This document shows positions 1,779 through 46,199 of a stretch of DNA of 64,000 nucleotides, one piece after another. The stretch's first letter is position 1; every line of letters begins with the position of its first letter. The stretch comes from Girardia tigrina (taxonomy: Eukaryota), in NCBI GenBank assembly GCA_001938485.1, contig MQRK01226571.1, positions 1 to 64,000 on the forward strand, in the 5' to 3' direction. The notes beneath the pieces were generated by a model. It was not told where the DNA came from. It made no database searches and saw only the letters and a list, made by a program, of their open reading frames with translations. The position numbers were made by a program, and so were the translations under genes.

Positions 1779-1859
1779 TAGTATGAAATAATAAAAACAA
1801 ATGAAAATTATTTTGGAACCCAAAAATGACAGATCTAAGTTGAGAGGATGAATTAACAG

Positions 1860-9200: not shown

Positions 9201-10351
9201 GAAATGTTGTCATCATTGGGTTTCAACCCATCTTTTGATATTGTATGACCAACATAAGACACAGAATGCGATATCTATGTGCGAAGCAAGGAATAGATGT
9301 GTCAAACGCGGATATCAAGGATCTGATTTCATTATGTCAAAAATATCAATCCATCGATTCGGCACCCGTAAAATGGAAAACCGGAAGGCTGAACGTCAAT
9401 TAAAATTGGACAAAACTTGCTGTGGATGTTACAAAGTACAATCAACAAAAATTTTTAAGTGTAATCGATTGTGGTCCTTCTCGCTTTGCGATATGGAAAT
9501 TAATTAAAGCTGAAGACGTCAAGTCAATTGTCTCAGAATTCTCAAGTTTGTTCTGTGAACGCGGGTCTCCCAAGGAACTAATTATTGATAATTATACTTT
9601 AATTAAGTAGAATTCAACAAGCTAATGGAAAAGTGGAACGTTCGAGTCATGTATCGTGCCATCAATCGACGTTACTGCAACGGAAAAATGGAAAGGAATC
9701 ATAGAACAATCAAAAGAATTGCGTTCAGATCAAATATCAGCATATTGGAAGCCTTATAGTGGTATAATAACACGCCATCTGAAGGAATAGAAACACCAAG
9801 CTCGGCGCTGTATAGCTATTTGCCCATAGGGTTAGATATAATTGGAAGAAGTGAAAAGGAACCGTTTTGTGGAAATCCAGATTATGTTGAGAATCAATTA
9901 GTGTGGGTAAAACCGGAAAACAGTACACCATGTACACTGCAATGGACCAAGGGTGTTGTCGTGAAAAGAATAGATCAAAGGAAATATCTCGTAAATTGCA
10001 ATGGATTTTGCGGTCGAAGACATATCGCAGACATTCGACCTAGACAGTCTGACTTGGTTGAAAATTCCAAGTCATACTATATGAATATGGAGGAAACTGC
10101 ATCACTACCAGATAATCAAACACAAGAGGAACAATCATTGAACAGTCGGCCTAGTAGAGAAAGACGAAGACCGTCTTATCTAAATGATTACATTGTGGAT
10201 TCAGATTCTTCTATGGATGAATCTGGTGGGAGTGTTGGATATTAGATATCTTGATTATTTAAAATATTTAATATATACTTTTTTGATAAATATTTTGTTT
10301 AAATATTATCAATTAAACAGTGTTTTGAAAATAAACTTTTCGTGTGTTACA
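9200..10351 (+). mobile_element. Gypsy integrase remnant with PPT and short 3' LTR
   Basis: MDVTKY...FLSVIDCGPSRFAIW, IIDN, NGKMERNHRTIK and a C-terminal RPSRERRRPSYLNDY. Then PPT GGTGGGAG followed by TGTTGG...AATAAA...TTACA (~10233-10351). Confidence 0.8.
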
Positions 10352-25389: not shown

Positions 25390-26214
25390 GATTGCAAATT
25401 ATGGTGAGCAAAAAACGAGTCGCAGATTCCAGCCCTGTCGAAAGAAAATCAACGGCTCCTTCAGGAAATCCAGGTATTGAAGCAATCAAATGACCAAAAG
25501 GAGGTCCAATTATCGAGACTCAATTCGGAGTTTGAGGACTACAGAAGACAGTCAGTCCCAATGTCGTTACATCGACCCATGGTCGAAAAATATGTTCAGT
25601 CTCAACAAAGATATAAAAAACTTCAAATGGACATTGATGAAGAGAGAATCCAACAAAATATTATGAGCTGTCAACGTAAAATGGTCCAACGAGTTTCTCA
25701 AGAGCATTCTGAGCTAATTGTTGAGGCGGTGAGGAACATGGAAACTAAGATAGTCGATGATCCAAGAAACAAACCTACAACCTCCAAATCAACAGTTTAC
25801 GCCTCAATAATAAGAGAAGATATTGCATCCTCTTCTCCGAGCATCATCAGTCGAACACAGAAACGGCGAGAACAGAGGAAACGAAAAGCCCCACTGGACC
25901 AACAAGCGCGAATTGAAATGGAGGTTATCAAAACCCATACGCGTTTGGACACAGTGGTTGCAGAGCAAGAAATCCTTGACGAAGGTGATTTCGATTTTAA
26001 GAGGATTGACCGATCGCCACAGCCCAGCGTGGATAATAAAATCGCCGTACCCCTTTTAAAGATTGGTATTGAAGAAGTAATCAGGAGGCAAAAATAGTTA
26101 GATTGGGAAGCCAAGTACAAAACATGGAAGGAAGGTCGAGACTGCCTTTTGTACCGATCAATCACAACTGGTCACAACGAAGAATTTGTGGTTCCGTCCG
26201 ACTCGGATGATTAA
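25390..26214 (+). pseudogene. Coiled-coil/basic ORF of unknown function with one internal stop
   Basis: The frame is open from ~25410 (NESQIPALSKENQRLLQEIQVLKQ...) through the 206-aa ORF, with TAG at 26095. It then continues LDWEAKYKTWKEGRDCLLYRSITTGHNEEFVVPSDSDD to TAA at 26214. AATAAA at 26261; possible intron GTAATA (25248)...CTTAG (25389). Confidence 0.55.
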
Positions 26215-26957
26215 TGACGATGAACAGATTTTTCCCGTTTATTTTTCTTTTGATTTGATTAATAAATAACAACATTTAGAATTTTATTGCGTTTTTTCTC
26301 TTGTGGTCTATCAATAAAAATATAAAAGATAAAAATAAGTAGTCTAACCTAAATAACAAATAAATAATCAATTAAATTAGGTAAGGACTCATAAATGAAT
26401 GTAACATATGATATTAAAGAAGATAAAGATACAGAATTCCGATCGATAAAAAACAAACAAAATTTTCAATCATTAGGAACCCGGTAGATACTTGGTTTTG
26501 TTCACTGGTGAAAGGATGGGGTCAGATGAACTTAATTGGGTATGGCATAGACCATATACCAACATCAGGAAGAGGTACCTGATGGGGTTTATGTCGAAAT
26601 AATATGTTGGGATTGAATCCACAGTTACTTTAATTAAAATGAAATTTATTGAATCGAACACATATCTCGCACTATTCGAAATCGTATCTCTATAATTCCT
26701 TTTGAACTATGGGGTATGGACTCTACTGCAATTTCGAGGAATCTCCGAATAACTAAGCTTTGAATACTTTTACTGCACACTGGTGTTCCATACCGAAATA
26801 TCCATTTATTTTAGCAAACTTAGCTCATCTATTCTGAGACTTCAGAACTTAAATGAATTAAGAAGAAGTATTAAAATTTATATATTAATATTTATAGTTA
26901 TGTTATATTATCATTTATGATAATATATTTTAAAAAATTAAAAAAACTGAAAATATG

Positions 26958-27908
26958 TGTTGTGTGCAACCACATTTCGTGGTTTTTTATTGTTTGTTGT
27001 ACAGGAGAGTTTGGAAACCTTGTAATTGTGTTTGTATTTGTTTTGGTTATATTTGTGTTCATTTTTTAGTATATTTCGTTGTATATGAATGCCGTTTCCT
27101 ATTCTGTTTTTGTTGATCGAAGTAATCTTGAATTTAATATCAAAGAAAGGACAGAGAACAAATATTGTACAGATTTTAATAATTAACTTTATTTACTATT
27201 TATAATTCAAAAGAACGAAATTTATTTCAATTGACACTATTTTATTTCAATTTAAACGAAAAACAAATTTAATTGTATCGTTTCGCTTACAGAATCAAAT
27301 TTATATTTCTTTAAAAGTTTTTATCGTTGATTTAGTAAAATTGATGATTTTGGTGTATAAATTATTATTATAAAAAAAACGAATTTGTTTTAACGAGTAA
27401 TTAGCTTGATATGAATATTATTTGAAATAAAAATTTAAAATGGACTGAATCTTTTTCTTTACGTCGTTTTATTTTAACTGATTCTCGAAATGTGCGTTTT
27501 AAAACTCGTTATCAGTATCGTCAATTCTTTATTAATGATGATTGGAATTGTGCTTGCGGTTATTGCTCTGGCGAATGAATTTCTTTTATGAAGAACATTT
27601 ACCATATTGAAGCGCAATTTAAAAATTTCATAATTAAAATTAGAATCTCATCAGCAAGTTCAGGTGGAATATTTTCATTGATGCAGCAGAACGCAAATTC
27701 AATTGGAGCCTTCGCATTTGGGGTTGGAATCGCGTTGATTGCTCTGGCTATACTGGGCATCGTAGCGGTGCGTTGCTGTTCATTGAGGAAGATTCTGATT
27801 GCCTTAACTGAGAGACCATTTTCTCGGTTCTATCTTGTCTTTGGAGTCGTGTGCCGGTTTCGCCGATTTTGTGGACCGCGAGCTCTTCGTCTTGAGGAGA
27901 ACTCAACA
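26958..27908. mobile_element. 951-bp solo LTR (BEL/Pao- or Gypsy-type) inserted in the outer 5' LTR
   Basis: TGTTG...CAACA termini; 5-bp TSD ATATG (26953-26957, 27909-27913). Removing it restores an LTR matching 44238-44389. Confidence 0.9.
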
Positions 27909-28009
27909 ATATGTAAAAACAATTTAAATTTGTTTAAATAATATGTTCTATAATAAATATTAATCTTGTTCAACTTTTATTGATTTTATCATTATTAGAT
28001 ACATACAAC

Positions 28010-28407
28010 ATGGCGTCACGAACAAACGTTACAGCTCAGAAGTACTTGGAAGAACTGATGTTTAAGAAGAAAGAAGAAAAGCTATTAATCTTCGTGAGAC
28101 ATCATTGCAAGGAGAGATCAATAATCGACCATATAAACAACGTGAAAAAGTATATCAGTCTCTTCGATAAATCGGCGTTAGGAGATTCCGCAAAAATGGA
28201 TATTTTATGTCCTATTTTGTAAACAACTTTATTGCTCAGATCCAGAGTGAGTCGGAAGCTGATGTTACGTCGATGAATATCGACACAATGTTAATAAAAT
28301 TGATTGGCAAATTTGATTTAAAGAAATCAAAAGTTGGTCAGTTATTACCTTTGATACGTGTGAAACAGGAGGAAGGAGAAACGTTACTAGATTTCGCAAA
28401 TAGAATA
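28010..28407 (+). pseudogene. Outer element gag, N-terminal part
   Basis: The ATG overlaps the LTR end/PBS (MASRTNVT...). The frame reads ...RVKQEEGETLLDFANRI and resumes in frame as KVETFH... at 39675. Confidence 0.8.
28011..28024 (+). promoter_or_regulatory. Primer-binding site of the outer element (tRNA-Ser(CGA)-like)
   Basis: TGGCGTCACGAACA lies immediately after the LTR CA and is complementary to a tRNA 3' end ...UGUUCGUGACGCCA. Confidence 0.8.
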
Positions 28408-28559
28408 AGTTATGCGTGATTGATTAATTATTAAATATTGTTTGTTTAAATAATATATAGATTTTGTACGCGGTTTAAAATATAGTTTTGATTTGACTTT
28501 GAAAATGGATTTTAAAGAAACCAAAAACGTAACTGGTGACCACGCCGAAAATATCAACG

Positions 28560-29950
28560 CAATTACGAAAAACCAACAAAGAAATATTTTGCTTGCGTCG
28601 TTGCCGAAGAAGACTCAAGAAATTCTCAATTTCAATGTCCGTAAGTTTGACGGTAGAGATTCGCAAGAAGCGGGAAAATGGCTAAAGGATATCGATGAAT
28701 GACTGTCATTAAATGACTTGCATTTGGTGAGTGCATTTGATTTATTATTGTCTGAAGAAGCTGGAGAATTATGGAAGAATTCAAAAACGGATGAAATGAC
28801 TCAGGTGGACGCTCGAGAATGGTTTCGTGACATATTTATGAGGAAGAAGTCAATCTTAGATAATTTCATGGACTGGCGAATGTCAAGCAAGAGCTAAAAG
28901 AGAGATTTGCCACGTTTGAAATTCAGGTAAAGAAACTAATTAACAGTGTTGTTAATCAGAGTTGAGTCGGAAATAAATTTTAAATGAGTTTTTAACGAAA
29001 CGGGTGCGTAGTACCGGTCTGAGGGATTCACTGGATCTGAAACCGGAAATGAAGAGAGAAGATATGTGGACACTAGCTAAAGTCTATGAGAACCGAGAGA
29101 TCTCGGAAGATGAAAAAATGGAAGTAAACGCTTTTAATAATAAAACAAATATCAAGCAGAAGAATCCCCCAAATTATGCGCAAGCTGTGAAATAACAACC
29201 AACAAAGCAATTTCAGCAGTCTAATTTTGGTTCCAGAATATCAACGGATGAGATATTCATAGATAGGGACTTTCCAACCGGAGTAGTCCTACACAATCGG
29301 TCATTTCTGAATTCCGACAAACGTCGATGAGATAGCAGCCTTCGGTTTCTCTGAAACATATAGCTCGAAGACTCTATAATAGATGTAGGGGACTACCCCC
29401 GCCGCACGAGGAGCAACTGAAACCGGGTCAATGTTTTTGTTGCAGGGAAAATGATCACAGACGTTTTCAATGCCCATTGAAGGATAAATGTCTAATATGC
29501 GGTAAATCTGGTCATTATTTTAAGGAATGTAGTCTTTTGCAGAACAGCAGTTATCAGAGGCCACGGATGATTTTATGTGTTTATGATGAAATTCACGACA
29601 CGGCCCAATCCGGAGATGAATTAATTCTACATGATGTTGAACCGGAAAAAACCCGTTGCTTACATTTCGTCAATGGGATTGGAATAAATGATGAGAGCAA
29701 AAATCGGAATGTAGAGGAGTGGGACGAAATGCGGAAGTGAACTGACGGGAGAATGTGGAGTACGGTAGAGGTGGAAGGTGTTCGTTTAGAGATGTTGTGG
29801 GATTCAGGAGCATCGGTTACGGTGATGAATGAAGATTATTGGCGGAAGATTTGAGAACCGAGACTTTCAGAATCAGGAGTTCGATTAAGCGGTGTGTTTC
29901 CGACTGGTACAGAAATGCCCATGGGTGTTGTTTTATTAGATATTCGTTGG
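28560..29950 (+). pseudogene. Inner element gag and aspartic protease (degenerate)
   Basis: VRKFDGRDSQEAGKWLKDID; zinc knuckles CFCCRENDHRRFQC and CLICGKSGHYFKEC; protease LWDSGASVTVM. Confidence 0.85.
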
Positions 29951-30360
29951 AACAAAAAGTTCCTGCGCTATCACCACAGGACACTTATAAGGTACACGTA
30001 CCCAAAGACTTACTGAACGCGCAATTCGTTTGGTTAATTCGGGAGCACCCTAACTCACTGCAAACCCAATACACCGATCCATACCGCACACTTCATTTCG
30101 ATGCACAAAACAACACTGCAACCATCGATTTCAATGGTACCCACCGCATCGTCAAAATTTGCAAATTGAAGCCATGTATACAAATTGAAGATTGTCCCGT
30201 CGACATGCCGAAAGTCAATTCCCTTAACCAGAAAGCGTCTGTATCATTCTCACCATGGGAGCGAATGTCCGACTCCACACATCCGGTACCCATGTAATCA
30301 AAGCAGCGCTTTCAACCGTCTCCGACTTCTCACGGGGGGGGGGCTTATGTAGTGAACATT
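29950..30360 (+). mobile_element. Gypsy integrase C-terminal fragment with G-rich PPT and LTR start
   Basis: SLQTQYTDPY...KLKPC (GPY/F-type module), then a G10 run and TGTAGTG at 30348. Confidence 0.6.
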
Positions 30361-30714
30361 TCCAACAAAAAATCAAACCACGCTAAAATTTTCACAAATT
30401 TAAATATTATTTAAATGTAATTTAAATTTCTTTTATTTTTGTTGTCGCAAAACTATTTAATAATTACAAAATTAAAATTCCCAGAAGTTTTTTTTTCACA
30501 AAAAATATCGGGATCAATCGACCCAAGAATTTTTTCACATGAAATTAAATATGTAAATAAAAAAAACGAAAACAATTGTTTTAATGTTTCAACGGAGATA
30601 ATTCGAGTGTCACAAATTCAAACCAATTTAGACATTTTTTTAACCCTGAGCGAACTGCCGAAAAATCGTGTAAAATTTATTTTGTGATGAATAAATTTTG
30701 TATCCGATTCTGTC

Positions 30715-31040
30715 TTTTCCTTGTTTTTTGCAAATGGGAACCACCACGAAAACTCCCACTTCAACAACAAAGAATTGAAGGAACCTGGTGGGAGCTAATC
30801 CACGCACAACTGTTCGAGCACTCGCAGAAGCGTTTAATGTTGATCCCTCAAACGTCGCTCGGCACTTGAAACAAATTGGAAAATTGAAAAAGCTTGATAA
30901 ATATGAGTCAAACGAATTGAACGAAAGTAAAAAAAAATCGTCGTTTTGAGGTGTCTTCAACGCTTCTTCTGCCAACAACAACAACCCGTTTTTTATCGAA
31001 TTACGACGTTTGATGAGAAGTGAATTCTCTACGACAATTT
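30715..31040 (+). pseudogene. Mariner transposase fragment (cecropia-like)
   Basis: ANPRTTVRALAEAF...RHLKQIGKLKKLDK...RITTFDEK*ILYDN. Confidence 0.8.
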
Positions 31041-31369
31041 AGAATTCCATTTTACTTTATAGTTGTTGATAAATTAAATATTTATTAAGTTTTTGTGCAG
31101 CTGCAAAAAACTATTTAAAGTTCATCTAGCGGCTGATTTGATTAAATTGAAATCTGAAATACGTCATATTAACAACATCAATATGACTTTTACAACATTT
31201 ATTAATATCACAAGCACATTCACTATTGGACATTTTTCTTGATCAATATATTTCTGAATTCATACTAATTATTTTCAATAAATGAAAATCTTTGAATACA
31301 AATTATTAATTATAAAGAATCTAATTGGTTAAAATTAAATCTAAACATTTTTAAAAAAAGTACATATTG

Positions 31370-33189
31370 TTATGATAGAGATCTCAGACGGCATGGACAT
31401 GTGAGTAAGGTGCATGAACCATTGTCAGCGTTTAAAATTGTCATACATTTACGTGAGTATCCAGAACGTGCGGCAAAGTCAATGGAAGTTACGTCCTTCA
31501 AAACGAGAGAGTTAAAAACCAGAATCAAGTACCAATTTGGGGAGGATTACACACCTTTAATGAATGGGCAATAATTGGCGGATCATACAACCAGACATCT
31601 TGTGGAAGCCGGAATATGGCCAGGATATGTTAATATAGTAGAGTTGGCAAAAACGGCCGGAACAAAGAGGCTAGTTAAACCATTTTATGAATACAGACAA
31701 CAAATTAGAGCGAATCACGAAGAAAAGTATTGACACAGATATTTTAAACATCACGATTTTAATAATGGTTTCTATGATCCAGATTGAATTAGTACCAGTC
31801 ATATGCGAACAATTGAGGAGTACATACAAGAATATGGAGAACTATCTCTCAGGAAATATCACTGTAAGAGAGTGTTGTTGTTAATTTTTTAATTTTCAGA
31901 ATTGAGAATTTGATTTTTTAAAATTTCGAATTATAATCGAAATTAAAAAAAATAATAGAAAATAGAATTAAAAAAAAGAAAATAAAAAAAAGAAAATTTT
32001 TTTAAATAACAAATTTAAACTGTTGTAGATTAATAAATTTTGCAAGTTTTTAATTTCTTTTTTGATTTTGAATGGAAGATAATTCCCAACCTAACAATCA
32101 CAATACCGTCTTCTCCGATACAACCCACAATCAAGTTACAACTAAGAATGATGATGAGTGAACTATTAAGCAACCTTGATGAATTAATGGACTCAATAAA
32201 CGGTATAGATTTGTATAATTACCAAACAAGACCGTTGGGAAGCATAATCAATATCCTTAATAGTATCTGCAGCACGAGTGGGAAAAAGAAGTGGAGTTAC
32301 AACAATTAAATAAAATATTTTTTGCAAAGTGGATGACTCAAAACTCAAAGATTACATTGCAATATTTAGACCACTATGCCAGTTTTGAGTACTACATGCC
32401 ACCGATATTTGAAATTCGATGCCGAACAACAGTCAGGGACATGAAATTGGATATATTAAAGGATTATCAGTCTAAATCGACGCTGTATTATGGGATACGA
32501 GCACTGACGGATGACAATGCAGAGATAATAACCTTGGGAGTGAGTCCAATGGAAGTTTATCGTTCGGACGACAGAGAAACCTTGTTAACGGCGATAACGT
32601 GCACATCAGACGACGTCGCGAGTTATGTAAATTATAACAAGGACGCTTTGATCAACGAACTATTCGACCTTAACAAAAATTATTTTGTCAATGGAAAAAT
32701 GAAGGAAGATTCAATCTGGAGCAATAAGTATTATGTGCCGATGCAGATACAAACCGTATATGAACTCGGAAATGAGCTGCGAGAAGGATGAGAAGATGAC
32801 ATCAGGTATTTGTTAAAATGCGAAAAATATATAACCGGTTGCGAAATGGACCGTACCATACTTTTTACTTGTGGGAAATGTTAATGCAATACGGAAATAG
32901 AATATTAACAGGATGTCAACAACATTATCATATCGTTGTCAACGACAGAGCAACGGATCAGACAATCGACGTTCATGGAAAAGAACCAACGATAGAAGCC
33001 CTATATGATGCTGTCAATATTCGGACGCGAGATCCATACATTCTTATTTGGGAAGGACGACAGTTACTCAAAAATGGAGACATGAGAAAGATATTCTTTT
33101 GGTCTAGAGATACATTTACTTTTCAATTTTCATCTAGAGTTGTGGTAAGGATAGGAGGAACCGCCTTTGCCACTAAAATTTCTCTATGA
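31370..33189 (+). pseudogene. Degenerate gene(s) with about three ubiquitin-like (beta-grasp) domains, the last ending VVRIGG plus a 9-aa tail
   Basis: UBL1 FKIVIHL..MEVTSFKTRELKTRI..LMNGQ*LADH..LVEAGIWPG (~31433-31650). UBL2 FEIRCRTTVRDMKLDI..LYYGIRALTDD..IITLGV (~32345-32560). UBL3 TIDVHGKEPTIEALYDAV..LIWEGRQL..VVVRIGG (~32925-33159). Stops and frameshifts lie between the pieces. Confidence 0.6.
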
Positions 33190-33654
33190 ATCATGCAGTG
33201 AAAAAATTTGATATTTTGATTTTTTGTTATGTCATGTGTTATAAATCCCTTTTTTAAACCTTTCATAGAATTTAGAATACATAATATAAGAGCATTTCTT
33301 AATAATGTTTAATTAAATTACCTTGAGTAAAAATGGGTGAGAATCTTGCTAAGAATAAATCATAAGCACAGGATTCTTGCACCACAACAAATTATTTTTC
33401 ACTGTTTTGAGTGATAAAATAACAAAAAAAGATACACAAAAAACTTTATTATTTTAATTTGAAAAATGCGTATAATTTTGATTATTTAAACAATTGTCAA
33501 TGTACTTTGTTTTTCGAAATTTAATATTGAAATTTTGTTCAAATTTATTTTTGGTCCCCAGTTGCGAGGATTGACAAGATGGGGGACAAAAAAATACTAA
33601 TTAAATAAAAAAAGAAAAAGTTAAAAGAAGAATTATTATAGTCGTACTATCGAC

Positions 33655-34123
33655 GCTGACTTTTACTGCACCAAACTTGATCTAATGTATGCGGCACTTG
33701 GCGAGAAATACCCCGCTTTGATCAATCAAAACGAGTTCTTCTACAACAGGACAATGCAAAACCGCACACCGCCAAACAAACAAAGGAAAAAATCAAAAAT
33801 ATCGACGCCTTTGAACTTCTTCCACACCCAGCGTATAGTCCGGATCTTGCGCCATCCGACTATCACCTTTACCGCTCTATGGCACATTTTCTTCGTGGTC
33901 GCAGCTTCAATAATCTGGCCGAGGTCGAAGACGGGTGTCACCAGTTCTTCGCTTCTAAGAAGAAGGATTGATACCGCAGCGGGATCGCACAACTTGCCCA
34001 TAAATGGATTCAAGCTTTTGATTCAAATAACCTTTACTTTGAAACTTAAATGTTTTTTATTTGTTGTAAAATTATGTTTAAATTTTTAATAAAAAAATAC
34101 GAAAAGACTTTTGGTTCACCCTA
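33655..34123 (+). mobile_element. Mariner 3' half with right TIR
   Basis: LLQQDNAKPH...LPHPAYSPDLAPSDYHLYRSM..., ending GACTTTTGGTTCACCCTAA. Confidence 0.88.
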
Positions 34124-35334
34124 AACATTCCGCCGGGCGGCATTAAATAAAATAATTTAAAATTTAATGCAGAAGTCGTGGACACCACAAACTGTTTTTT
34201 AACCAACAGATATTACTATGTGCGAAACTTACTGTGTGTTTTACAACGATGCAAAAATACGACTAATATTGTTACAGTAATACTTCAATAACAAGTTAAA
34301 TAACTTTAACGATTTTAAATATTGTACAAAAATGTTCGCAGCGCCCCCAGAATTTTTCGCGGTGCACCGTTTGCTCGACACTGCAATAGACGAACATCGA
34401 CGCTCAACAAACCATTGCCAAACGATATTGTTCAATCTCTTCAAAATTTTCAAGACAAAATAGAGACTAAGTCTCATTGCAAATAAAACTTTATTTTTAA
34501 TTTCATTCATATTTTCTTTTCAATTCAAAGACATCAGCATTTCAATATCATCATTTTCCCATTCCAACATTTAAACAAAATTTTTTTATCATATTAAACA
34601 TTTTTTCTTATAAAATCATTTTTACAATGATTATTTTATCATATTAACCAAGAATTAGAAAATCACCAAAACTTTGCGAACTGTTGAATGATTAAAAAGA
34701 AAATTACCAAATAATAATAATATGAATAATTAGATAAATGTCAATGAAAAATAATACATCTCAACAAACGATCAGTTTCCGATTATTGTGAAATAACAAT
34801 CATCAAGATTGCAAAAGCAATAACAAAACAGTTTATATGAATTTAAAAATGCAAGGTTTTTCGTTACCAAACTTTTTTGAATTTTTCAATAATATATATG
34901 ACACGACGGGCGAATGGTTGTGGCCGGCGATTGAATATGCACCTGAAACCACGGTGCTTTTCCTGGCGAGATGGAGGGAACGGAACGAACACAGCAGAGA
35001 TTAATTTTCCGAGTTTAGATTGCGCTATTAAAACGGGAAGTGGGTCGCAATCTACCCCACGTGCGATGTAGTCCATATTGACAAGGTAGTTGATCAAACT
35101 ACCGCGAGTCGAATAGCGATGCGTTCGATCTAACTCGATAATTTGGTTAAACGTTTTTACTCTCACGATCGATCCGATGTCTCAAGAATAGTTTTTGAAA
35201 TTCATCGTTGCCGCCAGTAATATCGCGTCTTCATCGTAATTTAAGTAAAATCGTGTTGTTGTCGACTGCATATTTAAAACTCGCAACCAAGTCATTTAAT
35301 TATTTATTTCATTCAAACAATTTCTTTGTATCAC

Positions 35335-35500
35335 ATCACGAGATGATCAAACCGAGGCCGCAACGAACAGTTGTCCGACTAGCAAAGTTCGCGGACTACG
35401 TTTGCGCGGGGGTGAAGTCAATAAAGAAAAGCGGAACCTTGCAGTGCACGGGCAGCGTCTGTGTTTGTGCCTTGAAGGCAAGGGAGAGTGTGATTTAATT
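35335..35500 (+). mobile_element. Gypsy 3' end scrap (integrase tail, PPT, LTR start)
   Basis: RPQRTVVRLAKFADYV tail, then AAGGCAAGGGAGAG followed by TGTGAT. Confidence 0.5.
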
Positions 35501-36211
35501 ATTTTTGTTTAAATTGGTAATTTGCCAGTTTTGGGAATATTTCAAAAATATAGTTTGCTGGTCTTCATAATTTCTGTATTTGATTCTAGTTTTTCTTCTC
35601 AATATTTTATACTTAATATATTAAATCCAAAAAATTAAATTGATTCTTATTATTATATTTTCATTGAAATTTAAATCAGCTCACGGAGAATTTAAACTCT
35701 TTTGAGGCTTAGGATTCTGGGATCTCGTGTGTATCTTTGCGTAGCTTCTTGTAATCAAAATTAAGTCGTTGAAGATACCGATGAATCACCAATTTATCAA
35801 CTTTAAGTTCATGTACTAAATTTTAAATGCTTTGATTTGTAAGCGTCCAAAACAGATTAAAAATATTCATCGTATAACTTGAACCGTCGACCAGAGCGAG
35901 GATCATCCTTAAGACTCATGTCACTAAATTCATATCGCTTGAACTTTTTGTTGATAAAGTCGTGTGATTAGCAGTTCCTTCGCTTTATGCATCACAAATC
36001 TTTCTTTAAGAAAGTTTGAATTTATCAATGGTCACTTGATTGATCATGTCATGATTAATTGTCAATGGTTATTTAATATAAATGACGTAATAAAATTATA
36101 AGATAGCAAAATAAAATAGCTCCTTCATCGAAAATAACTTTTAGTAAGATTTTACTATTTAAAAAAATGTAAAACTTCAACCTAGACAATAAAATTTAAA
36201 TTCATTTTTAA

Positions 36212-36443
36212 CCCTTAATAACCTAGAGTTTCAATTTTTATACCAATCTTTTAAACCGAATGTTCACATTACTATTAGTTTTTTTTATAGGTTGGCTGTA
36301 CGTATTTTATTGTTATATAATATTCTTTCCAACAAATTTTTTTAGCTATTGATTTTTTTAGTTATTTTTCCCTTCATCTAGACTCTCAAGCAAACACAGT
36401 AATATTAAAAATAAATCACTTTCGTAAATCAGGCTACTAAGGG
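36212..36443. mobile_element. piggyBac-type MITE
   Basis: TTAA flanks; TIR CCCTTA(A/G)TA(A/G)CCT (11/13 match). Confidence 0.8.
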
Positions 36444-37081
36444 TTAAAGTGTGTTCATTTACTATATATACTATATATATACTATATACATAAAATAGTC
36501 AATGATATTTATTTTTCACAATATCTACCAGAATTTAGGATCACAATGGATGAGACATCGGCCTACATAGATTGATCTTCTCAAACAACTTTGATTTTTA
36601 GAGAACTACCTCAATTTATGTTTTTTCAACAGGTTATGATAGTTCAAGAGCTAGATGTGTTCTTGAAATAAATTTAAATTGTCAAAGGCTATCGCCATTA
36701 TTATTAATGAAAACAGTCCAAATCGATTATACTTCAGGCGTTAATATTTGGAAACGGAAAAAATTATTTTTTTTTGTAATTTTTTTAAATAATTTAAATT
36801 TGTGGAAACGCAAGAAAATAAATTTGGATTTAATATATTATTTTAAAATATTTTGCTGCTTTTGTGAGTTAATTAAAATTTTTAATGAATCAGAAACTTT
36901 TAAATGCAACAAAATTAGAATGAGAACCGGCTTATCTATTATCCAATATAAATAATTTTGGGTTTTGCACATGTTGATGTGACTCTGTGGTTTTCGAAAG
37001 CGCATTGCAAGTCAATTTTGAAGAAATTCTTGAAGATTTAATTATACAGATGATATATTGTGAGATGGAAGATATGATTTC

Positions 37082-37712
37082 TGTTACGAGTGATTGTTCG
37101 ACAGAAATCAATAAAAGAACGAGAATTGATCATCATTGCAGAATTTTTGTAAGACAGGAGAAATAACAGTCTGAGATCTATAACCAAGAGGTGGGAATAT
37201 ATAAAATACCTCTGAGACTAAAATAAACACCTCCAACGCTGGAGTTCAGTGACGGTGCAACAAGTTTTTATATTCGACGCAATGTGATATAAATAGGTAA
37301 TACAGGATCAACGACTCCTTTATGAGCATGCAGAATGATGTATTAGAGAAGTTACGTAAAAGATCAGGGATCACCTGTGCGGCCAGGCGGGCATACTTAT
37401 ACGTAGTATCCCTGAGAAACTAGAGACTCCTGTCTCTAGGCAAAAGTGCCCAAAAGAAGTTACGCGCCGTCCTCGCAAGAGGTACTATTTATCTGTCAAG
37501 GTAACTTGATGGATGTGGCTATACCATATGTTTAAACCCTGGTCCCGTGAAGCATGGCAAAAATGACTTCGATGACTCTATCCGCTGGCGTTGAGAGAGT
37601 CGTTGGTGACATTACTCAAGTCTAAGGCTTGGCCTGTGGAGTACATTAGTACAAGGGTTGGTCTCAGCACGGAGCATAGTTCCTACTAGTCACTATAATG
37701 GCGCAAGGGACA
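37082..37712. mobile_element. LTR-like, GC-richer non-coding segment
   Basis: Begins CTGTTACGA like 3171 and ends GGGACA. Internal perfect hairpin CTAGAGAC-TCCT-GTCTCTAG. No TSD found. Confidence 0.35.
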
Positions 37713-38224
37713 ATACACAAACTCCGGATTCACGTAAAAGATAATTCCAAAAACTTTTGTGAGATAACTAGGAGTTTGTTAAGAGTTTGATATCTATGTT
37801 AATCAATTCTAAAGATATGAACAACTGTTATCATGCTTATATAAATGATGAGAAATATTATTGAGCTTTAATCGATAAAGTTCAAATAGTGAATGGAACT
37901 TTTTTGATAAATGGAACTGATACTTCTAGAGAGACTTCTAGTACCTAGATGTAAGATCATCTTAGAACTTATCATAATACCTGCAAACACAAGATTGGTT
38001 AGCTTTAAATCACATCGAAGACAATGATTCTAGATACAAGAACAAAAGTTTGTTGCACTACTCTAACCTTGTAAAACCTCATTTCTTAGCCGATGCATTG
38101 AGTTTTCCACTAATATTAAAATTGTTGCCTTCATCTTTTTTTATCAATTTTATCCTCTTTTTGTGATCATTAGGCACTATTGTTCATTTTTAAAATAGAA
38201 ATTTTTGTATACATAATTTTTTTA

Positions 38225-39026
38225 ATTCTTTGTCATTTTATTTGCAACAAAATCGATAATTTCAATGTTAAGGCATTAATTTGGACCGAGGTTATTTGTG
38301 TGATTATGTTTGTTAATTATTTTATCCATCGAAATAATTAAAATTAAAATTCCTAATTTAAAATTCAAAAAATTTAAAAAAATTGTCAATATTTTTGTTT
38401 AATCTTAAATCGAGAGTTTGATATGAAAATTTAATTATCTATAAATACCTGTGCAATTCCAATATTTCCTTTTTCGGCTATACTTCTTTTAACAGAGTTC
38501 GAAGGATATGGTAAATCAATGTTATTTGTGTACCAGTCTTCCATAATTTTAATAGCTGTTTCATTTAACGACTTATTTTTCTTCGGCTTTTCCAAATGAC
38601 AGTCATTATTTACACTTTGATTAGTACGCTTGTTACTTGTGTTCTCCTCCTCATCTGACATAAAAAGGCTTTAGGGTTTGATTTGAATTCAATTCTTGAA
38701 CATCTAAAGACTTAATAAAATATAGGCAATATCTAAAACACCTGTTAAAGTATTTGATCCACCAGGAAAAGGATAAATTGATGAAACTGTTTTTGAAATT
38801 TGGTTTTCATCAGTGTTGCCAAATTCAAAATTTTTAAGCATCTCAAATCCTAAACTTTTTGACCACGACATAACATCCCAATTTGTTGGCATTAAACGTT
38901 TTATGTTTGGATCTTGAAAGATCTGACCATTAAGATCATTTTGAATAACGTTTTCCCTGGATTAAAAATAAGTTTCAAATGTTCTTTAAAAACAATAATC
39001 GTTCAACATTACCCTGGGTTTTGCAT
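38225..39026 (-). pseudogene. Spliced TALE-class homeobox gene (probably pseudogenised), antisense inside the inner LTR element
   Basis: Homeodomain KKNKSLNETAIKIMEDWYTNNIDLPYPSNSVKRSIAEKGNIGIAQ has the PYP TALE signature. GT-AG introns at 39012-38957, 38741-38704 and 38448-38404. Remnant helix 3 IKQ...ANK; one apparent frameshift before 38661. Confidence 0.75.
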
Positions 39027-39674
39027 AAATATCTAATTAAATATTACACTGATAAAATTTATAACAACATTTATTACACTGGATTTATAACAAAATTTTA
39101 AGTCACTTACTCATTCACCATAGGACCGTTTCTTATCTTCCTTTCTGATTAAAGTTAACTCAATTCTTCTCCGTGGCGAGTTTAAATTGATAAAAATAGT
39201 GTTACGAAGTTAAAATACAAAGTCCGATACAAAAACCGATTAATTTTATTTTAAATTTTTAATCAAATAACTAAAATGAATATTTTTAAATAAGCATTGT
39301 TTTTTTTTAATTTTAACAAATAAAATTCGTGGAAAACGTTTTTAAAAGATTATTCATATCTCAAATTGGTTTGACGAGTGAAGGCTCAACTATGGATTGT
39401 TGTAAGGAGAGTCGAAATTGTGTATATAATACAAATTGTAAACAATATATGAGTTCTCATAACACCTTTAAACAAAGTAATATATAAGAATGGAACTAAT
39501 AACAAAAAATTGATTACTTTGTAAAATTCGAAATCATTATGATAGTTATGTGTGATTGATTAATTATTAAATATTGTTTGTTTAAATAATATATAGTTTT
39601 TGTATGAGGTTTAAAATATAGTTTTGATTTGACTTTGAAAATAGATTTTAAAGAAACCAAAACGTAACTGAATA

Positions 39675-42600
39675 AAAGTGGAAACTTTTCATTTACCAGT
39701 AAAGTTGGATAATATTCTTGTAAAGATATTTCGACATAGTATAAGAGACAAAAATGTAGCAAAAGTATTGAAAATATTGAATCCATCCACAATAGCAGAT
39801 GCTTTAACAATGGTTAGAGAAGAAGACTGCGAAAAAGTTGATAATAATAATCATGAATTCTATAAAATGAACAAAAATATAGAAATATCAGAGTTATTGC
39901 AGAAAATCAAGAAGTTAAAGTAAAAAAATAAACAACTACGAGATGAGATATCAAAACTGGAAGATCGATGTTTTCCGAAGACTAACAATTTTGAAAGAAA
40001 TAACAAATACGAAAACGTTAAATGCTACAAATGCAATAAAAATGGGCATATTAAGAAATGTTGCAGAACAATAATATGTTTTGAATGCGGCGGAAATCAC
40101 AAAAAAACTCACTGTCCGAACCTCAAGACGGTGAAAGTGATGAAGGAAGAAGAACTATCGGATACCCAGAGCATTAACTCGACATCTCATTCTTCAAGAT
40201 GAGAGACTAGGCAGTTTAATGATATTTCAAAATCTAAACCAGAAAAACGGGATTTAACTAACCAGTATGTGGATTACATCCATGGCACGACCAAAAAGCC
40301 TAAAAGGCAACTATAAAAAGAGGTGCTGATGAAAAAGTCGTCTACAATAAACAAACCCATTGTTCAATTTACTATTGATAACAGAAAAATAAATGTTATG
40401 TTTGACACTAGAGCCGAGTTAAACGTGATAAGCAAAAGCCTTGTAAAACGTTTAACGGAAGAATCGGGCATAAGGATATATCCATCAGAAACGAAAGTCA
40501 GATGTGCCAACGATCAAACAGTAATTTGCGAAGGAAAAATTAAAGTTTCGGTAAATTTTGGTCGTATAGCAACGAAACATGTTTTTGATATCATGCCAGA
40601 TATATCACCAGATATTGTTATTGGATGTATGTTCAATTATTAGACAAAATATGGATAACTTACCGGAAAAGGTTAAGAATGCCACCATGGAGATAATTCG
40701 GCAGAATATAGAAATTTTTAGCAAATATACTTTAGACGTTGGTTTCACAAACATTATCGAACATTCCATAAAAACAGAAGAAGCAAAACCAATTGTATTT
40801 AAACCTCGAAGGATTTCAATAGGTTTAGAAGAAGCATGAAAAAATATGGTATAAGCGTCAGGTCAGAGATTGATTCTGTCGAAATTCAAAATGTTATTGT
40901 TCCGTTAGTTTCAGCCACCAAAGCTGCGATGACTTTAAACTAATCAATACCGTATATAAGAGTTTGGATGCGAATGAAGGGACAAAAAGAGCTCAGAAGT
41001 TTTTAATTAAGCGCATTTATTTTATGTAATAATGTAGAATTATCCGGATCTCGAGAGTTATTTGTGAAAGATACTGTGTTAGACAAAAATATGCAGAAAT
41101 TATTAATATCCGATTATTTATTATTTATGGGGGATAAACTGGAAATGACAGAGAAAGATTTCATTTGTAATTCCTTAGTTACTGCACATGAATGATTTAT
41201 ATGGGTTCGCATATATATGCCGGATGGAGGTGTCAAAATTTTACATGCTGTATCTTTTTTAGGGCATATGGAAGAATGGAAAGACGAAATGATACAATGT
41301 ACCAAGAAAAGCATTTTAGTTTATCATAAGTATCAAAGGAAAGAGAAGTATCCAAATTAACTGATGTATCTTCAATTATTAGACAAAATATGGACAACTT
41401 ACCGGAAAAGGTTAAAAATTCCACCATGGAGATAATTCGGCAGAATATGGAAATTTTTAACAAATATACTTTAGACGTTGGTTTCACAAACATTATCGAA
41501 CATTCCATAAAAACAGGAGAAGCAAAACCAATTGCATTTAAACCTAGAAGGATTCCAATAGGTTTAGAAGAAGCTGTAAATACTTAAGCAAAGGAGTTAG
41601 AAGAGGCGGGTATAATCAGGCAAAGTAATTCTCCGTGGAATTTCCCATTAGTAATCATTTAAAAGAAAAATGGAGGTATACGATTATGTATTGACTAACG
41701 GGGATTAAATGCAAAGACTGAACGTCCAATATATCCGATCCCATCTAGCAAAGAAATTTTCGATGCGATAGAAGAAGCGAAATATTTTTCTACTGTAGGC
41801 ATATCAAGCGGATATTATCAAATACCTATAAAAGAGGAAGATATAAAGAAAACGGCATTTACAACAAAATACGGGCAATACGAATTTACCCGAATGCCAT
41901 TCGGTTTGTGTCAGCTCTAGCTACATTCCAAAAAATGATGAATCTTATTATGCAAAGAGAAAACTGGTTAACATGTCTGATTGATTTGGATGACGTCCTC
42001 GTTTTTGGAAGGACAATAGAAGAGCACAATAACCGATTAAGTTTAGTGCTTTAGAGGATAAAAGAAGCAGGTCTTAAATTGTCTGCTGAGAAATATTGCA
42101 TTTTGAAAAGCAGTGTATGGTATCTTGGTCACATAATAGATGCGGAAGGGGTGAAAACGGACCCTGAAAAATTGGGTGCGATAAAAAATTGGCATATTTC
42201 AAATTGCATAAAGGAGTTACAATCGTTTCTACGATTATATAAATATTATAGAAGATTCATTAAAAATTATACCATGTTATCGGAACCTCTCACTTCGATG
42301 ATTAAGACTGATTCAAAAATTTAGTGGAACGCGGATAAAATTAATTCGTTTAATAAACTGAAAGATGCTTTATCCTCCCCAACCGTTTTAGCTCTTCCAA
42401 CAACCGACGGTCATTACATACTGGACACCGATGCTTCACAAAACTCAATTGGTGCAGTATTATCGCAAATACAAAATGGTTCTGAACGTGTTCTGACATA
42501 CGCTTCAAAAACCCTAACTAAAAGTCAAAAAAAATATTGCATTACTCGAAAAGAACTGCTGGCAGTGTATGTTTTTGTTTTGAAATTTAAACATTATTTA

Positions 42601-44224
42601 TTAGGTCATAACTTTACGGTCAGAACAGACCACAAAGCTTTAAAATGGTTCTTAAATTGAGACAGTCCAAATGCGTCGTAATTTTGTGTGTGTAAGTCAG
42701 AGTTAGAAGTATATGATATGACAATAGAATACTGGAAAGGAAACGATCAGGCGAATGCCGACGCTCTATCAAGATTGGGTTATTGTGAACAATGCACTCT
42801 TAATTATAAAGAACCACTGAAAATACGAAACGTTAAAGTTTTCGAAGACAGTTCAAGCGATTCAAGCGATGAAAAAGCTATATGCAAATTATTTATAAAT
42901 GATGGCAATCAATTTAAAGATGTTGTAATTGTATGGAATATTAAAATGATTACAAAAAGTATAACCATAACCGAAGTACCTACGGAAATCAAAGCAGATA
43001 AATGTTTTAAACAACTATTTTCACGTTTATCAGATCTAAGACTACGAGGATACTTACTTTATTTACTAGACAATGACATTTACAAACTAGTTATTCAAAA
43101 GTCTGATAGACATATTATTATTCAAAAAATGCACGAAGGTCTGGGGGCATACAGGTATAGAGAGAATCACAGTTGCATGAAAAAATGAATTCTACTGGCC
43201 AAGTATAGATCACGATATAAAAGATTTTTTTACTAAGTGTGAAGCGTGTGCTAAATTAAAATGTAAAAACGGTCGTGGTAGAGCACCAATTACCCATATA
43301 GAAGCAAACAGACCATTTGAAGGATAAGACCTAAAGAAGGATATTGCTATATTTTAGGAATAATCGACAACTTCTCCAAATATGTAGCTTTAATCCCTCT
43401 TAGAACAATAGATTAAAAATCTAAAATAAAATTATTATGAGATCAATGGACATCAAAGTACGGGAAACAAGAGCATATACATTCAGATAACGGTTCTTAT
43501 TTTTTTTCTGCTGAATTTAAAACCTTTTGTTTTTCGATGAATATTAATCAAAATCAAAGCTCACCTTATTATCCGCAATCAAATGGATTAAATGAACGAA
43601 GTTTTCGCACAGCTAAAGAAATGATAAATGTGTATATGTATTCTCGTAACACACGAGATTGGACAGAAGTTCTTACGATTGTGGAATACGGTTTGCGATG
43701 TGAAATGCAGAAATCCAGGGGGTATAGCCCCTTGGAAGCAGTATATAGAAGAAAACACTCATTACTAAATTTTATTGGTAAAAACGAGGGCAGAAGAACA
43801 GAAAGTGAATATGTATTGTAGTTAAAGAACACGCAACAAAAGCTGAATAAATTAGTCTCAGATAATATAAAAAATAATTCGAAGAATTCAGATAATCTAT
43901 CAGAAACATGTGGTATACCAAGCTCAGAGTTGGAGACAAAGTGTTAATAAAAGAAACGGGGAGAAAAGATCAGGAAAAACAAAATACGTCGGACCGTTTA
44001 CTATAAAGAAGATAAATAATGATTGGACTTATGAATTATTGGACAAAGTATCTCATACACTCCTGAAAAGAAACTACAATCAAGTTAAAAGATATAAAGG
44101 AAGATTAAGTATTCCTTGTGATCGGACATCAAGTGTATCATCCAGCTCTGTCGCAAAAACGATAGTGAAGGATAAGAGATATCCAGTAAGAAGCAAAAGA
44201 AATCCAATTCCAAAATATCGGTGA
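39675..44224 (+). pseudogene. Outer element gag C-terminus and pol (PR-RT-RH-IN), many stops/frameshifts
   Basis: Knuckles CYKCNKNGHIKKCC and CFECGGNHKKTHC; PR MFDTRAELNV; RT SPWNFPL, RMPFGL, LDDVLVFG; RH LDTDAS, TRKELLA, TDHKAL, NADALSR; IN HSDNG, YPQSNGLNER, YVGPF. Confidence 0.93.
40633..40837 (+). repeat. ~205-bp copy of 41372-41575 inserted upstream within pol
   Basis: Near-identical TCAATTATTAGACAAAATATGGA...GGTTTAGAAGAAGC occurs at both sites. Confidence 0.9.
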
Positions 44225-46199
44225 TCCCAGAGGGGGATGTTATATTATCATTTTGATAATATATTTTAAAAAATTAAAAAACTGAAAATATTTAAAAACA
44301 ATTTAAATTTATTTAAATAATATGTTATATAATAAATATTAATCTTGTTCAACTTTTATTGATTTTATCATTATTAGATATATAAAACAAGTTAGCGATT
44401 TTGATATCTGGTTTGTGCGAAATAAGAAACCATCATTCCTTATAATTTTTTTGCAAAATCGTTAATTGTTGTATTAATAAATATTTGGTATTATGAACTC
44501 AATCATTGATCACGAACTCAACATTCTGAATTTGATTTCCGAATATATAGTATGATTCTAGTGAGGCAAAGTTTGATTGGTCTGCAAATAAAATTCTTTA
44601 ATCTGCAATGATCGTATGATATTATTGCGTGGGCGTGATGTGATACAAGTCTGCAATCAATTAAGGTTCATTTCCATAAATACATGGTATCAAATGCCTC
44701 AGTAACATAGCTAGGAGTGCTTTGATTTGTTAATTTCTAAGTTATCACTTCATTAGTTCTATTTTTATTAAATTATCGATTTTTCTTATTTTACTCATTA
44801 CTATAAGTATTTTCTTTGGAGTTTTTTGTGATCTAAGTGCTCTATAACGCTCATACCCAAAAACATGAGCCATAACTGTTTATATGCTTCAAATACAGTT
44901 TGAACGTAATCAGTACCTGTATCAGTGACGAACCGACCGTTAAATGATAATTTTACTTGCAACGTAGTGTTGCAAGAAGAAGAATCTTTTCTTTATCTTC
45001 CCTCAATCACCCTCCATCACCTCAAACATCTACCACAAATTCTAGATAATATATGATATTTTTTCTTTCTATCAATTTCTCTAACAAGTGACACAGAGTC
45101 CCGTTAAAACATAAAAACGTTTATATTCCTGATTCATTAATTAATTCATATCTTTACGTTGTAACTTTTTTGATGTGTGAAATCAAATCGTTTTTTTATC
45201 AGTGTTTCGTAAATCAATAGATTTTTGATAATTGTGTATAAATAAAAAATAAATAAATGCTAAAAAATTATTATTACAAAAAAAATTTAAAGAAAAAAAT
45301 TAAAAGATTTTTAAAAAAATTGAGTTTAAATGCATTAGTTAAATAAAAAAATTAGAGTTATGTTTTGGCGATCGATAAAATAATCAATGAGATGACGTTA
45401 TCTTTGGTGGAATTTGATTTTGATATTGGTTGTTTTATTCGAATTAAATGTAATTTATGAGTTTTGGCGCAATTGTCAATGTGCAAAATTTAAATAAATT
45501 TTTATGAGTAATATATTTTTTGAGACATTTTGATCAAACAATCGAATTTTCAATTGCATATTTAAATTTCAATCTTCATGACATTTGATATAAGTTATTC
45601 AATAAACGAAATCTCTCCTCAAACGATGATTGTTTTTTTGTTTTAAAAAATCGATTCAAAACGTTATGTCGAATTTTGTTAAGTTGGATAAAGAACCGAT
45701 TGTCAATTGTAATAAAGATTCAAATGGTAAATCGAATATATTTTGACATGATGCTTCATTTGAGTCTGTCAATTCGAGCCTGAGTTGGGAAAGGTCTTTT
45801 GAATCGACGCCGTCATCGAACCAACATAATCTCAACAATCGTTTCAAATCGAATTTCGATGATTGGAAAAAGCTTTTAAACTATTCAAAATCTGAAAATA
45901 AATTGCAATTGAATAGTAATAATAATAGTAATACTAATGACAATAATCGATCATTCGCGATGGACGAGGAAACAGAGTTACTTTTGATTAAGGTATTCTC
46001 CATGTTAATATCTGCACGACCCAGAAATAGGACACGAACGCTAGAGTGTTGCAGCCGCGCTTCGCCTGCTCTGTTGTAACCAACAGCCATATTGACTGGA
46101 CAAAAAATTGGATATACTAAGTACTGCTGTTTCCATTACTTTTAGGATAGTCGAAATCGCGCTCAATACTACCAACGCACAGATTATTTTTTACGAAAT

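What the first reader, a model, noticed from the sequence alone, without database searches (positions are those of the whole stretch)
28408..39669. RT-less LTR element whose interior holds cellular-type cargo (UBL gene and homeobox gene)
Seen: two ~127-bp LTRs with atypical AGTTA...TAACT ends and a perfect GAATA target duplication. The interrupted outer gag rejoins in frame (FANRI|KVETF), so the two LTRs belong to one integration event. Gag and protease remain, but RT/RNase H and a PPT are absent. The interior instead holds a multi-ubiquitin-like gene, an antisense spliced TALE homeobox gene, an unknown coding-like segment and TE scraps. Inference: either a non-autonomous cargo-carrying retroelement, or a later large insertion/rearrangement (e.g. 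Helitron or Maverick) that replaced pol.
Basis: partly seen in the sequence, partly recalled or inferred. Interest (0 to 1): 0.8.

Follow-up and report, generated by a model that had tools for sequence, protein, structure and literature searches.

The report
Dead retrotransposon patched with genomic scraps
This is one broken copy of an ordinary many-copy jumping gene whose enzyme half has been replaced by a 9.6-kb patchwork of other transposon pieces and a broken homeobox gene copy, likely by DNA repair or recombination after it had landed, so it is likely a one-off scar rather than an element that carries host genes around.

Summary
Observation holds: 127/126-bp LTRs (AGTTA..TAACT), a true GAATA duplication (14 of 14 outer-family copies carry GAATA once), no RT/RNase H/integrase of the family, and no PPT. 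The cargo-element reading does not hold. The LTR belongs to an ordinary Ty3/Gypsy family. All 6 two-LTR siblings examined in full have RNase H and integrase (5 of 6 gave an RT hit), and none has the cargo. The interior is at least four pieces: a second Gypsy's 3' end, a Burro-like gag-extension fragment (the 'UBL gene'; not cellular, UBL fold unconfirmed), a hAT/mariner block, and a 94-97% copy of a TALE homeobox locus that keeps its introns and is frameshifted. They meet at four mid-element junctions (filler or 1-6 nt overlap); J1, J6 and J8 were searched directly and found only here, J4 by block search only. The right end abuts the LTR's first base, as a second copy's integration junction would. 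Best reading: DNA-level ectopic recombination/repair after insertion (0.68). Rivals: cDNA conversion, misassembly. The scan has noted RNA-type host-gene capture elsewhere in this genome; this locus lacks those hallmarks. Contiguity is not independently confirmed.

The parts
28171..28407 (+). Outer Gypsy element (family O), gag left of the insertion, ending in the TSD GAATA (28403-28407)
   Evidence: 14 of 14 fetched O copies run on into the sequence of 39670+ with one GAATA
28408..28534 (+). 5' LTR of Gypsy family A, AGTTA..TAACT, followed by TGGTGACCAC (PBS-like; tRNA not identified)
28535..29961 (+). Decayed gag (CCHC) and protease of family A, cut inside the protease at 29961
   Evidence: 9 distinct sibling copies reach 29961 and all continue with the same pol sequence; about 6% substitutions to two siblings
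29963..30763 (+). 3' end of an unrelated Gypsy family: integrase-like tail, G-run PPT (~30334-30344), complete TG..CA LTR (30348-30763); joined to A by a 1-nt filler (junction J1)
   Evidence: J1 pattern found once in the genome
30764..31040 (+). Mariner-like transposase 5' fragment into which the second Gypsy was integrated (mariner label from recalled motif likeness; Pfam gives only HTH)
31167..31368 (.). ~201-bp high-copy short repeat, cut at its right end and joined by a 17-nt filler to the next block (junction J4)
31386..33119 (+).
31863..32092 (.). Later TG..CA solo-LTR-like insertion with 5-bp duplication ATCAC, absent from the sibling copies that align across this point
33114..35338 (.). 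Block shared with contig C182729 (91%; 5.5% substitutions): hAT-like transposase piece (label recalled, no Pfam hit), mariner C-terminal piece 33638-34105 (DDE_3), and a repeat cut at 35338; joined to the Burro-like piece over ~6 nt of overlap (J6)
35338..39293 (.). Block shared with C132882/C74882/C62914 and three redundant contigs (94-97%; 2.1-4.6% substitutions); starts inside a repeat (J8, 1-nt overlap)
36212..36443 (.). Later piggyBac-type MITE (CCCT..AGGG, TTAA duplication), absent from the sister locus
37365..37731 (.). Later 367-bp repeat insertion with 11-bp duplication, absent from the sister locus and from runs X1/X2 contigs
38446..38961 (-). TALE (PBX-like) homeobox gene remnant: two exons split by a 38-nt GT-AG intron (38741-38704); helices 1-2 only; +1 frameshift relative to the sister copy
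39238..39543 (.). Old repeat scrap (39238-39464) plus 79 bp found only here, abutting base 1 of LTR2 with no PPT
39544..39669 (+). 3' LTR of family A (original, or hybrid with a second copy), followed by TSD GAATA (39670-39674)
39670..44389 (+). Rest of the outer Gypsy O: gag, protease, RT/RNase H, integrase, 3' LTR (44238-44389)

Best explanation
An ordinary Ty3/Gypsy copy sits in the gag of another Gypsy with a 5-bp duplication, and its pol and PPT were likely replaced afterwards, at the DNA level, by 9.6 kb copied or moved from elsewhere in the genome. Shown: the insertion site, the cut in the protease, four or more source blocks, mid-element junctions, retained introns, and later insertions inside the patch. 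Inferred: the right end arose by recombination through LTR homology with a second family-A LTR that had integrated beside the homeobox locus. That explains why foreign DNA stops exactly at LTR base 1 with no PPT, and why the outer TSD survives. Inferred: the inner joins (filler of 1 or 17 nt, overlap of 1 or about 6 nt) are end-joining or template-switch joins. They come either from one multi-template repair event or from an unequal crossover followed by several deletions; these two cannot be told apart here. The result is a dead single-copy structure that cannot be copied as a unit.
For: All 6 two-LTR siblings examined (3.7-5.0 kb) carry RNase H and integrase, 5 of 6 gave an RT hit, and none holds interior DNA except an independent copy of the 201-bp repeat. 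Sibling 3' LTRs are preceded by the family PPT: 12 of 33 distinct LTRs by pattern, plus one read by eye; the rest are 5' or solo LTRs. LTR2 is not. J1 is found once; no second contig spans J6 (19 of 19 candidates scored) or J8 (40 of 125 scored); the 17 nt before LTR2 occur once. Both sides of J1, J6 and J8 cut elements that continue in other copies (9 of 9 copies of the J8 repeat continue upstream). Block 1 includes the second Gypsy's LTR end plus flanking DNA, and blocks 3-4 are 2.2 and 4 kb of colinear genomic DNA with no intron-sized GT-AG loss against their sister loci. The 38-nt homeobox intron is skipped in a contig of run X3 (RNA is a guess) but kept here. Three private insertions with their own duplications, and 2-5.5% divergence of blocks 3-4 from their sister loci, match the LTR-pair divergence in order of magnitude. 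Internal deletions are common in sibling elements (1054-bp element L006; L022, L032). Planarian synteny breakpoints are enriched in Gypsy, and the authors suggest retrotransposons as strand-invasion templates (PMC11410931, passages); Ty1 mediates non-allelic recombination in yeast (PMC7175516, passages).
Against: The predicted donor junction (homeobox flank + second LTR) was not found. The last 250 bp before LTR2 have no close second copy (40 of 80 candidates scored), the sister contig C62914 turns into other sequence at 39293, and none of 3 LTR-end+ATGAT sites fits as partner (the reversed control pattern gave 8). LTR1 and LTR2 share no rare letters, but neither do 5 of 6 intact sibling pairs, so a hybrid LTR is not shown. 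Physical linkage of the donor blocks could not be tested, and the interior does not recur in the rest of this 78-kb contig examined (1-74000). Divergence differs among blocks (2-13%), so the nearest contigs need not be the true donors. The three LTR-element fragments all lie in sense orientation, as packaged RNAs would.
Confidence: 0.68

Rival explanations
1. RNA route without integrase: reverse transcriptase switched among co-packaged read-through RNAs (one ending in a family-A LTR beside the homeobox locus), and the chimeric cDNA recombined into the resident copy, replacing pol and PPT.
For: Several templates joined with little homology; family A, the second Gypsy, the Burro-like piece and both mariner pieces are all sense; the exact LTR boundary would follow from a read-through RNA; antisense introns would be kept. 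Multi-switch chimeras are described (PMC5131818 section 10 read), and Ty1 retrosequences occur at rearrangement junctions (PMC7175516 passages). Unreviewed scan notes report RNA-type capture elsewhere in this genome.
Against: No sense-strand intron loss or poly(A) was seen in blocks 3-4. The blocks are kilobases of repeat-rich colinear DNA, including sequence beyond a Gypsy's U5 end. J1 has a filler, not microsimilarity.
Confidence: 0.12
2. Assembly chimera: real loci wrongly joined or used to fill a gap between the two halves of the outer element.
For: The assembly is fragmented and redundant (255,254 contigs; five near-identical contigs of the homeobox locus). Contigs of runs X1 and X2 carry the sister version's letters at the listed homeobox differences.
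Against: No N in the interval. J1, J4, J6 and J8 are not in shared repeats, where assemblers usually misjoin (recalled). Fillers of 1 and 17 nt and three private insertions with TSDs point to real history. A correct TSD on both sides would need two coordinated errors.
Confidence: 0.11
3. A non-autonomous cargo-carrying LTR element mobilised in trans by family A's enzymes.
For: Matched LTRs, intact termini, PBS-like sequence and a perfect TSD.
Against: No PPT at LTR2, so reverse transcription would not regenerate the AGTTA end (established retroviral mechanism, recalled). The internal PPT of the second Gypsy would prime at the wrong place. Single copy; cargo genes broken.
Confidence: 0.05
4. 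One large DNA element (Helitron or Maverick) inserted into pol, followed by a deletion up to the LTR.
For: Helitrons can carry patchworks of gene fragments (recalled).
Against: The left edge is a direct join into the middle of another Gypsy's integrase-like tail. No Rep/helicase or pPolB match among the interior reading frames scanned. No junction is shared with another copy, and a random deletion ending exactly at LTR base 1 is unlikely.
Confidence: 0.04

Closest known systems
Ty3/Gypsy LTR retrotransposons with errantivirus-type AGT..ACT ends (ZAM, Tirant, opus; PMC5408687, passages read)
   Same: AGT/ACT inverted termini; gag-PR-RT-RH-IN order in siblings; integrase-type TSD
   Different: 127-bp LTR, no env seen in the sibling examined (L031); clade not tested by phylogeny; this copy lacks pol and PPT
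Non-allelic recombination / repair using LTR-element homology (Ty1 in yeast, PMC7175516 passages; Gypsy-enriched breakpoints in Schmidtea, PMC11410931 passages)
   Same: Rearrangement junction at an LTR; foreign DNA joined through retroelement homology
   Different: Here the product is an interstitial multi-source patch with the original TSD kept on both sides; mechanism inferred from one decayed locus
LTR-mediated retroposition / maize Bs1 (PMC5131818, section 10 and passages read)
   Same: Partial gene pieces from several sources between LTRs of one family
   Different: No intron loss, no 3' internal element sequence or PPT, no microsimilarity at the first switch, no secondary copies, homeobox antisense and frameshifted
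Burro/GYPSM1 giant Gypsy elements of dugesiid planarians (PMC6431247, passages of section 7 read)
   Same: Source family of 31386-33119 has gag with CCHC knuckles, a long extension, and a mononegavirus-like fusion protein upstream of the protease; Burro is reported to hold a Ubi2/SUMO-like motif
   Different: Only a 1.5-kb torn fragment is here; the source family's ORF1 is 1336 aa in the best copy seen, not ~5000 aa; BIR/MATH/ankyrin not found in the pieces scanned

Membership tests
Ty3/Gypsy LTR retrotransposon (family A) | Paired LTRs with 4-6 bp TSD | tested here: met
Ty3/Gypsy LTR retrotransposon (family A) | PR-RT-RH-IN order | tested here: met
   In sibling L031 by Pfam; this copy retains only gag and part of PR
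Ty3/Gypsy LTR retrotransposon (family A) | PBS complementary to a host tRNA | not tested
   TGG(C/T)GACCAC follows 15 of 33 sibling LTRs and LTR1; no tRNA was matched
Non-autonomous cargo-carrying LTR element (LARD/Bs1-like; features recalled) | PPT adjoining the 3' LTR | tested here: not met
Non-autonomous cargo-carrying LTR element (LARD/Bs1-like; features recalled) | Further copies sharing the same switch points | tested here: not met
   and block searches; searches score only the best candidates and the assembly may be incomplete
LTR-mediated retrocopy (Tan et al. 2016) | Intron loss in the captured gene | tested here: not met
   38-nt intron retained; no GT-AG gap against sister loci; the gene is antisense, so this is weak against a sense read-through RNA
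LTR-mediated retrocopy (Tan et al. 2016) | Microsimilarity at switch points | tested here: inconclusive
   J1 1-nt filler, J4 17-nt filler, J6 ~6-nt overlap, J8 1-nt overlap
LTR-mediated retrocopy (Tan et al. 2016) | Transcription from the LTR | not testable with these tools
   No RNA holder listed
Burro-like element (source of 31386-33119) | Gag with CCHC knuckles plus long extension | tested here: met
   L123 1336-aa ORF, zf-CCHC E=7e-7
Burro-like element (source of 31386-33119) | Fusion-glycoprotein env between gag and protease | tested here: met
   Monjiviricetes_fusion E=8e-24 (L123) and 6.5e-8 upstream of the protease in L121
Burro-like element (source of 31386-33119) | Ubiquitin/SUMO-like domain | tested here: inconclusive
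   No Pfam hit in window pieces; ubiquitin E=0.036 in L121 outside the window's part; atlas 0.76, rank 12; fold pLDDT 36
Burro-like element (source of 31386-33119) | Giant size, BIR/BCL2/MATH/ankyrin domains, RT phylogeny | not tested
   Contigs fetched (10.6-20.5 kb) did not show a whole element; hence 'Burro-like' only
Helitron or Maverick insertion | Own termini/TSD and Rep-helicase or pPolB/integrase genes | tested here: not met
   Edges are J1 and the LTR; no such Pfam hit in the interior frames scanned, which were not all frames
TALE (PBX-like) homeobox gene | Homeobox_KN helices 1-2 | tested here: met
TALE (PBX-like) homeobox gene | Recognition helix 3 and an intact frame | tested here: not met
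   No helix-3 exon by pattern or tblastn in the window or sister contigs; frameshift in the window copy

The most novel reading that the evidence does not exclude
The locus is a fossil of one multi-template repair event: a break inside a Gypsy copy was mended by hopping through at least four unlinked loci and closing on a sister LTR. If so, LTR families with hundreds of short near-identical LTRs act as landing pads that import intron-bearing host genes, here a TALE homeobox, between perfect TSDs. That would be a DNA-level gene-duplication route that mimics retrotransduction and gives a countable test of the proposal that Gypsy elements template rearrangements in flatworm genomes.
Probability: 0.3. 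Interest if true: 0.45.

Novelty: new member of a known kind. Interest (0 to 1): 0.22.

Why it matters
Mostly as a caution and a small data point. Matched LTRs plus a perfect TSD around host-like genes do not prove a cargo-carrying element; checking the PPT, sibling interiors and junction copy number separates retro-capture from later DNA rearrangement. 'LTR pair + TSD, no PPT' loci could be counted genome-wide to measure LTR-mediated ectopic repair in this group. No new functional gene results: the homeobox copy is frameshifted and the 'UBL gene' is a transposon fragment.

Tried and rejected
Public runs: no RNA holder listed. On 36600-41500 no listed contig piece bridges the homeobox side to LTR2 or spans the LTR (only 33 pieces shown, 1995 not shown; holes prove nothing). 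UBL test: AlphaFold of the source ORF part gave mean pLDDT 36 from a 9-row alignment of close copies, so no fold search was run; the homolog search gave one 90%-identical protein; the atlas gave only sub-0.9 leads. Homolog search with the homeobox exon among longer proteins: 0 of 15 candidates scored. Donor-junction hunt: no close copy of 39400-39543; 3 LTR-end+ATGAT sites, none a partner. LTR genealogy could not separate an original from a hybrid LTR2. The idea that the two mariner pieces are one element split by the UBL piece was dropped: the right piece belongs to the C182729 block and the left piece had no match among fetched loci. Local source of the patch: none in window 1-28400, 39681-64000 or contig 64001-74000. 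Six literature searches did not turn up this exact structure; they were not exhaustive, so no claim of absence from print is made. No supplements were read.


Full report
Observation. The two repeats are 28408-28534 and 39544-39669, differ by 5 substitutions and 1 indel, and both run AGTTA..TAACT. GAATA flanks both. All 14 other copies of the outer Gypsy family that were fetched carry it once and continue directly from the sequence before 28408 into the sequence after 39674, so the duplication and the gag rejoin are real. There is no N in the interval.

The LTR family is ordinary. The LTR search gave 547 candidates, 40 scored, nearly all full length at 97-100%. Of 33 distinct sibling LTRs, 15 are followed by the same PBS-like sequence as LTR1 and 12 are preceded by the family purine tract by pattern. 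Of the 6 left over, one has the tract by eye, one is a 5' LTR with a changed PBS, and four are solo LTRs. TSDs are 5 bp. Sibling L031 (4975 bp) has protease, RT, RNase H and integrase by Pfam. All 6 two-LTR siblings examined have RNase H and integrase, and 5 have the RT piece. A seventh two-LTR copy is internally deleted to 1054 bp but keeps its PPT. None carries the window's interior, apart from an independent copy of a 201-bp repeat in L031. AGT/ACT ends are known from errantivirus-type Gypsy elements (PMC5408687, passages). The window copy follows its siblings to 29961, inside the protease; 9 distinct siblings reach that base and all go on with the same pol sequence.

The interior is a patchwork; 9359 of 9582 bp fall in assigned blocks. 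(1) 29963-30763 is the 3' end of a different Gypsy, with a G-run PPT and a complete TG..CA LTR (846 candidates, 40 scored). It was integrated into a mariner-like fragment, which is followed by a 201-bp high-copy repeat. (2) 31386-33119 matches residues 754-1264 of a 1336-aa gag ORF of a multi-copy family. That family has CCHC knuckles and a Monjiviricetes-type fusion protein upstream of the protease. This is the layout reported for planarian Burro elements, which also hold a Ubi2/SUMO-like motif (PMC6431247, passages). So the 'UBL gene' is transposon-derived; the ubiquitin fold looks plausible by eye but was not confirmed. (3) 33114-35338 is colinear with contig C182729 (5.5% substitutions), including a shared mariner insertion. 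(4) 35338-39293 is colinear with C132882, C74882, C62914 and three redundant contigs (2.1-4.6% substitutions) and holds the homeobox. That the organism is a planarian is my inference from these features and from unreviewed scan notes; it was not tested.

Junctions. J1 has a 1-nt filler, J4 a 17-nt filler, J6 about 6 nt of overlap and J8 1 nt. J1, J6 and J8 cut elements on both sides that continue in other copies. J1's pattern occurs once in the genome. No other contig spans J6 (19 of 19 candidates) or J8 (40 of 125 scored). J4 was covered only by block searches. The 17 nt before LTR2 occur once. Since arriving, the patch has gained a solo-LTR-like insert (ATCAC duplication), a piggyBac-type MITE (TTAA) and a 367-bp insert (11-bp duplication) that the sister copies lack; loss from the sisters is the less likely reading.

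Homeobox. Helices 1-2 match Homeobox_KN and PBX1/Exd. A 400-letter contig of run X3 (another organism label; RNA is a guess) skips exactly the 38-nt GT-AG intron 38741-38704 and carries the sister copy's letters. With that intron removed, the sister copy reads in frame into the homeodomain, while the window copy shifts frame and stops. No helix-3 exon was found in the window or the sister contigs, although a 41%-identical paralog has one. Runs X1 and X2 show the sister version's letters. The window copy is therefore a pseudogenised duplicate or a divergent allele; I cannot tell which.

Mechanism. Reverse transcription sets the LTR's left end at the PPT (established, recalled). An element without a PPT could not have produced LTR1's exact AGTTA end and a clean TSD, so the element inserted whole and was altered later. 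Foreign DNA stopping exactly at LTR base 1 looks like the integration junction of a second family-A LTR that was exchanged in by homology; this is inferred, and the donor junction was not found. LTR genealogy is uninformative: intact pairs differ by 1-6 substitutions and rarely share rare letters. The inner joins fit either multi-template repair or unequal crossover followed by deletions. Kilobase colinear blocks, sequence beyond a Gypsy U5 end, and no intron loss favour DNA over RNA templates. The sense orientation of the retroelement pieces, and scan notes on RNA capture elsewhere in this genome (unreviewed), keep a cDNA-conversion rival alive (PMC5131818 section 10; PMC7175516 passages). 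Misassembly is not excluded, because no independent data were shown to span the junctions.

Papers seen: PMC6431247, PMC5408687, PMC11410931 and PMC7175516 as passages; PMC5131818 as passages and section 10; PMC12440569 as abstract and outline (not used); others as search listings only. No supplements were read.

Verdict. The locus is a real but dead, single-copy rearrangement inside a common Gypsy, of a known kind. Interest 0.22.

Noticed in passing
L123 (G000:C181156) 2368-9999 and L121 (G000:C243577) 3-9998: A multi-copy Burro-like family with gag(+extension), further ORFs, a Monjiviricetes-type fusion glycoprotein and then the protease (env before pol); ORF1 is 1336 aa in L123, much shorter than the published Burro ORF1, so possibly a distinct compact lineage.
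   Followed up: partly
L042:1-418 (G000:C62914): The sister homeobox locus is flanked by sequence that by eye resembles a diverged relative of that family's second ORF (shared 'IDLTD..NIY.GE' motif); not tested by search.
   Followed up: no
L134-L136 (G000:C133020-C133022): An apparently intact, divergent PBX-like TALE gene with the helix-3 exon (VNSWFANRR) behind a short intron; 41% identical to the window's exon.
   Followed up: partly
window ~26901-27940 and 44238-44389: The outer Gypsy's 5' LTR appears split by a ~940-bp insertion (LTR start near 26901, remainder from 27900), judged by eye against its 3' LTR.
   Followed up: no
window 40624-41574: The outer element has a 739-bp-spaced internal duplication (212 nt at 95%) in its protease/RT region, absent from siblings.
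   Followed up: no
window 31369-31385 and 39537-39545: The 17-nt filler at J4 shares the 9-mer TTATGATAG with the LTR2 junction; possibly a templated filler linking the two joins, but noticed post hoc and not tested against chance.
   Followed up: no
window 31167-31368; L031:2765-2956: A ~201-bp very high-copy young repeat (4705 candidates for the query holding it, 95-98%) also sits inside the RT of a family-A sibling; type unidentified.
   Followed up: partly
L006/L025 (G000:C247947:16803-17983): A 1054-bp-spaced family-A copy that keeps both LTRs, PBS, PPT and TSD but almost no coding sequence (TRIM-like deletion derivative); copy number not checked.
   Followed up: no
window 25408-26097 (+): A 229-aa open frame, coiled-coil-like, without a Pfam match, upstream of the outer element.
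   Followed up: no
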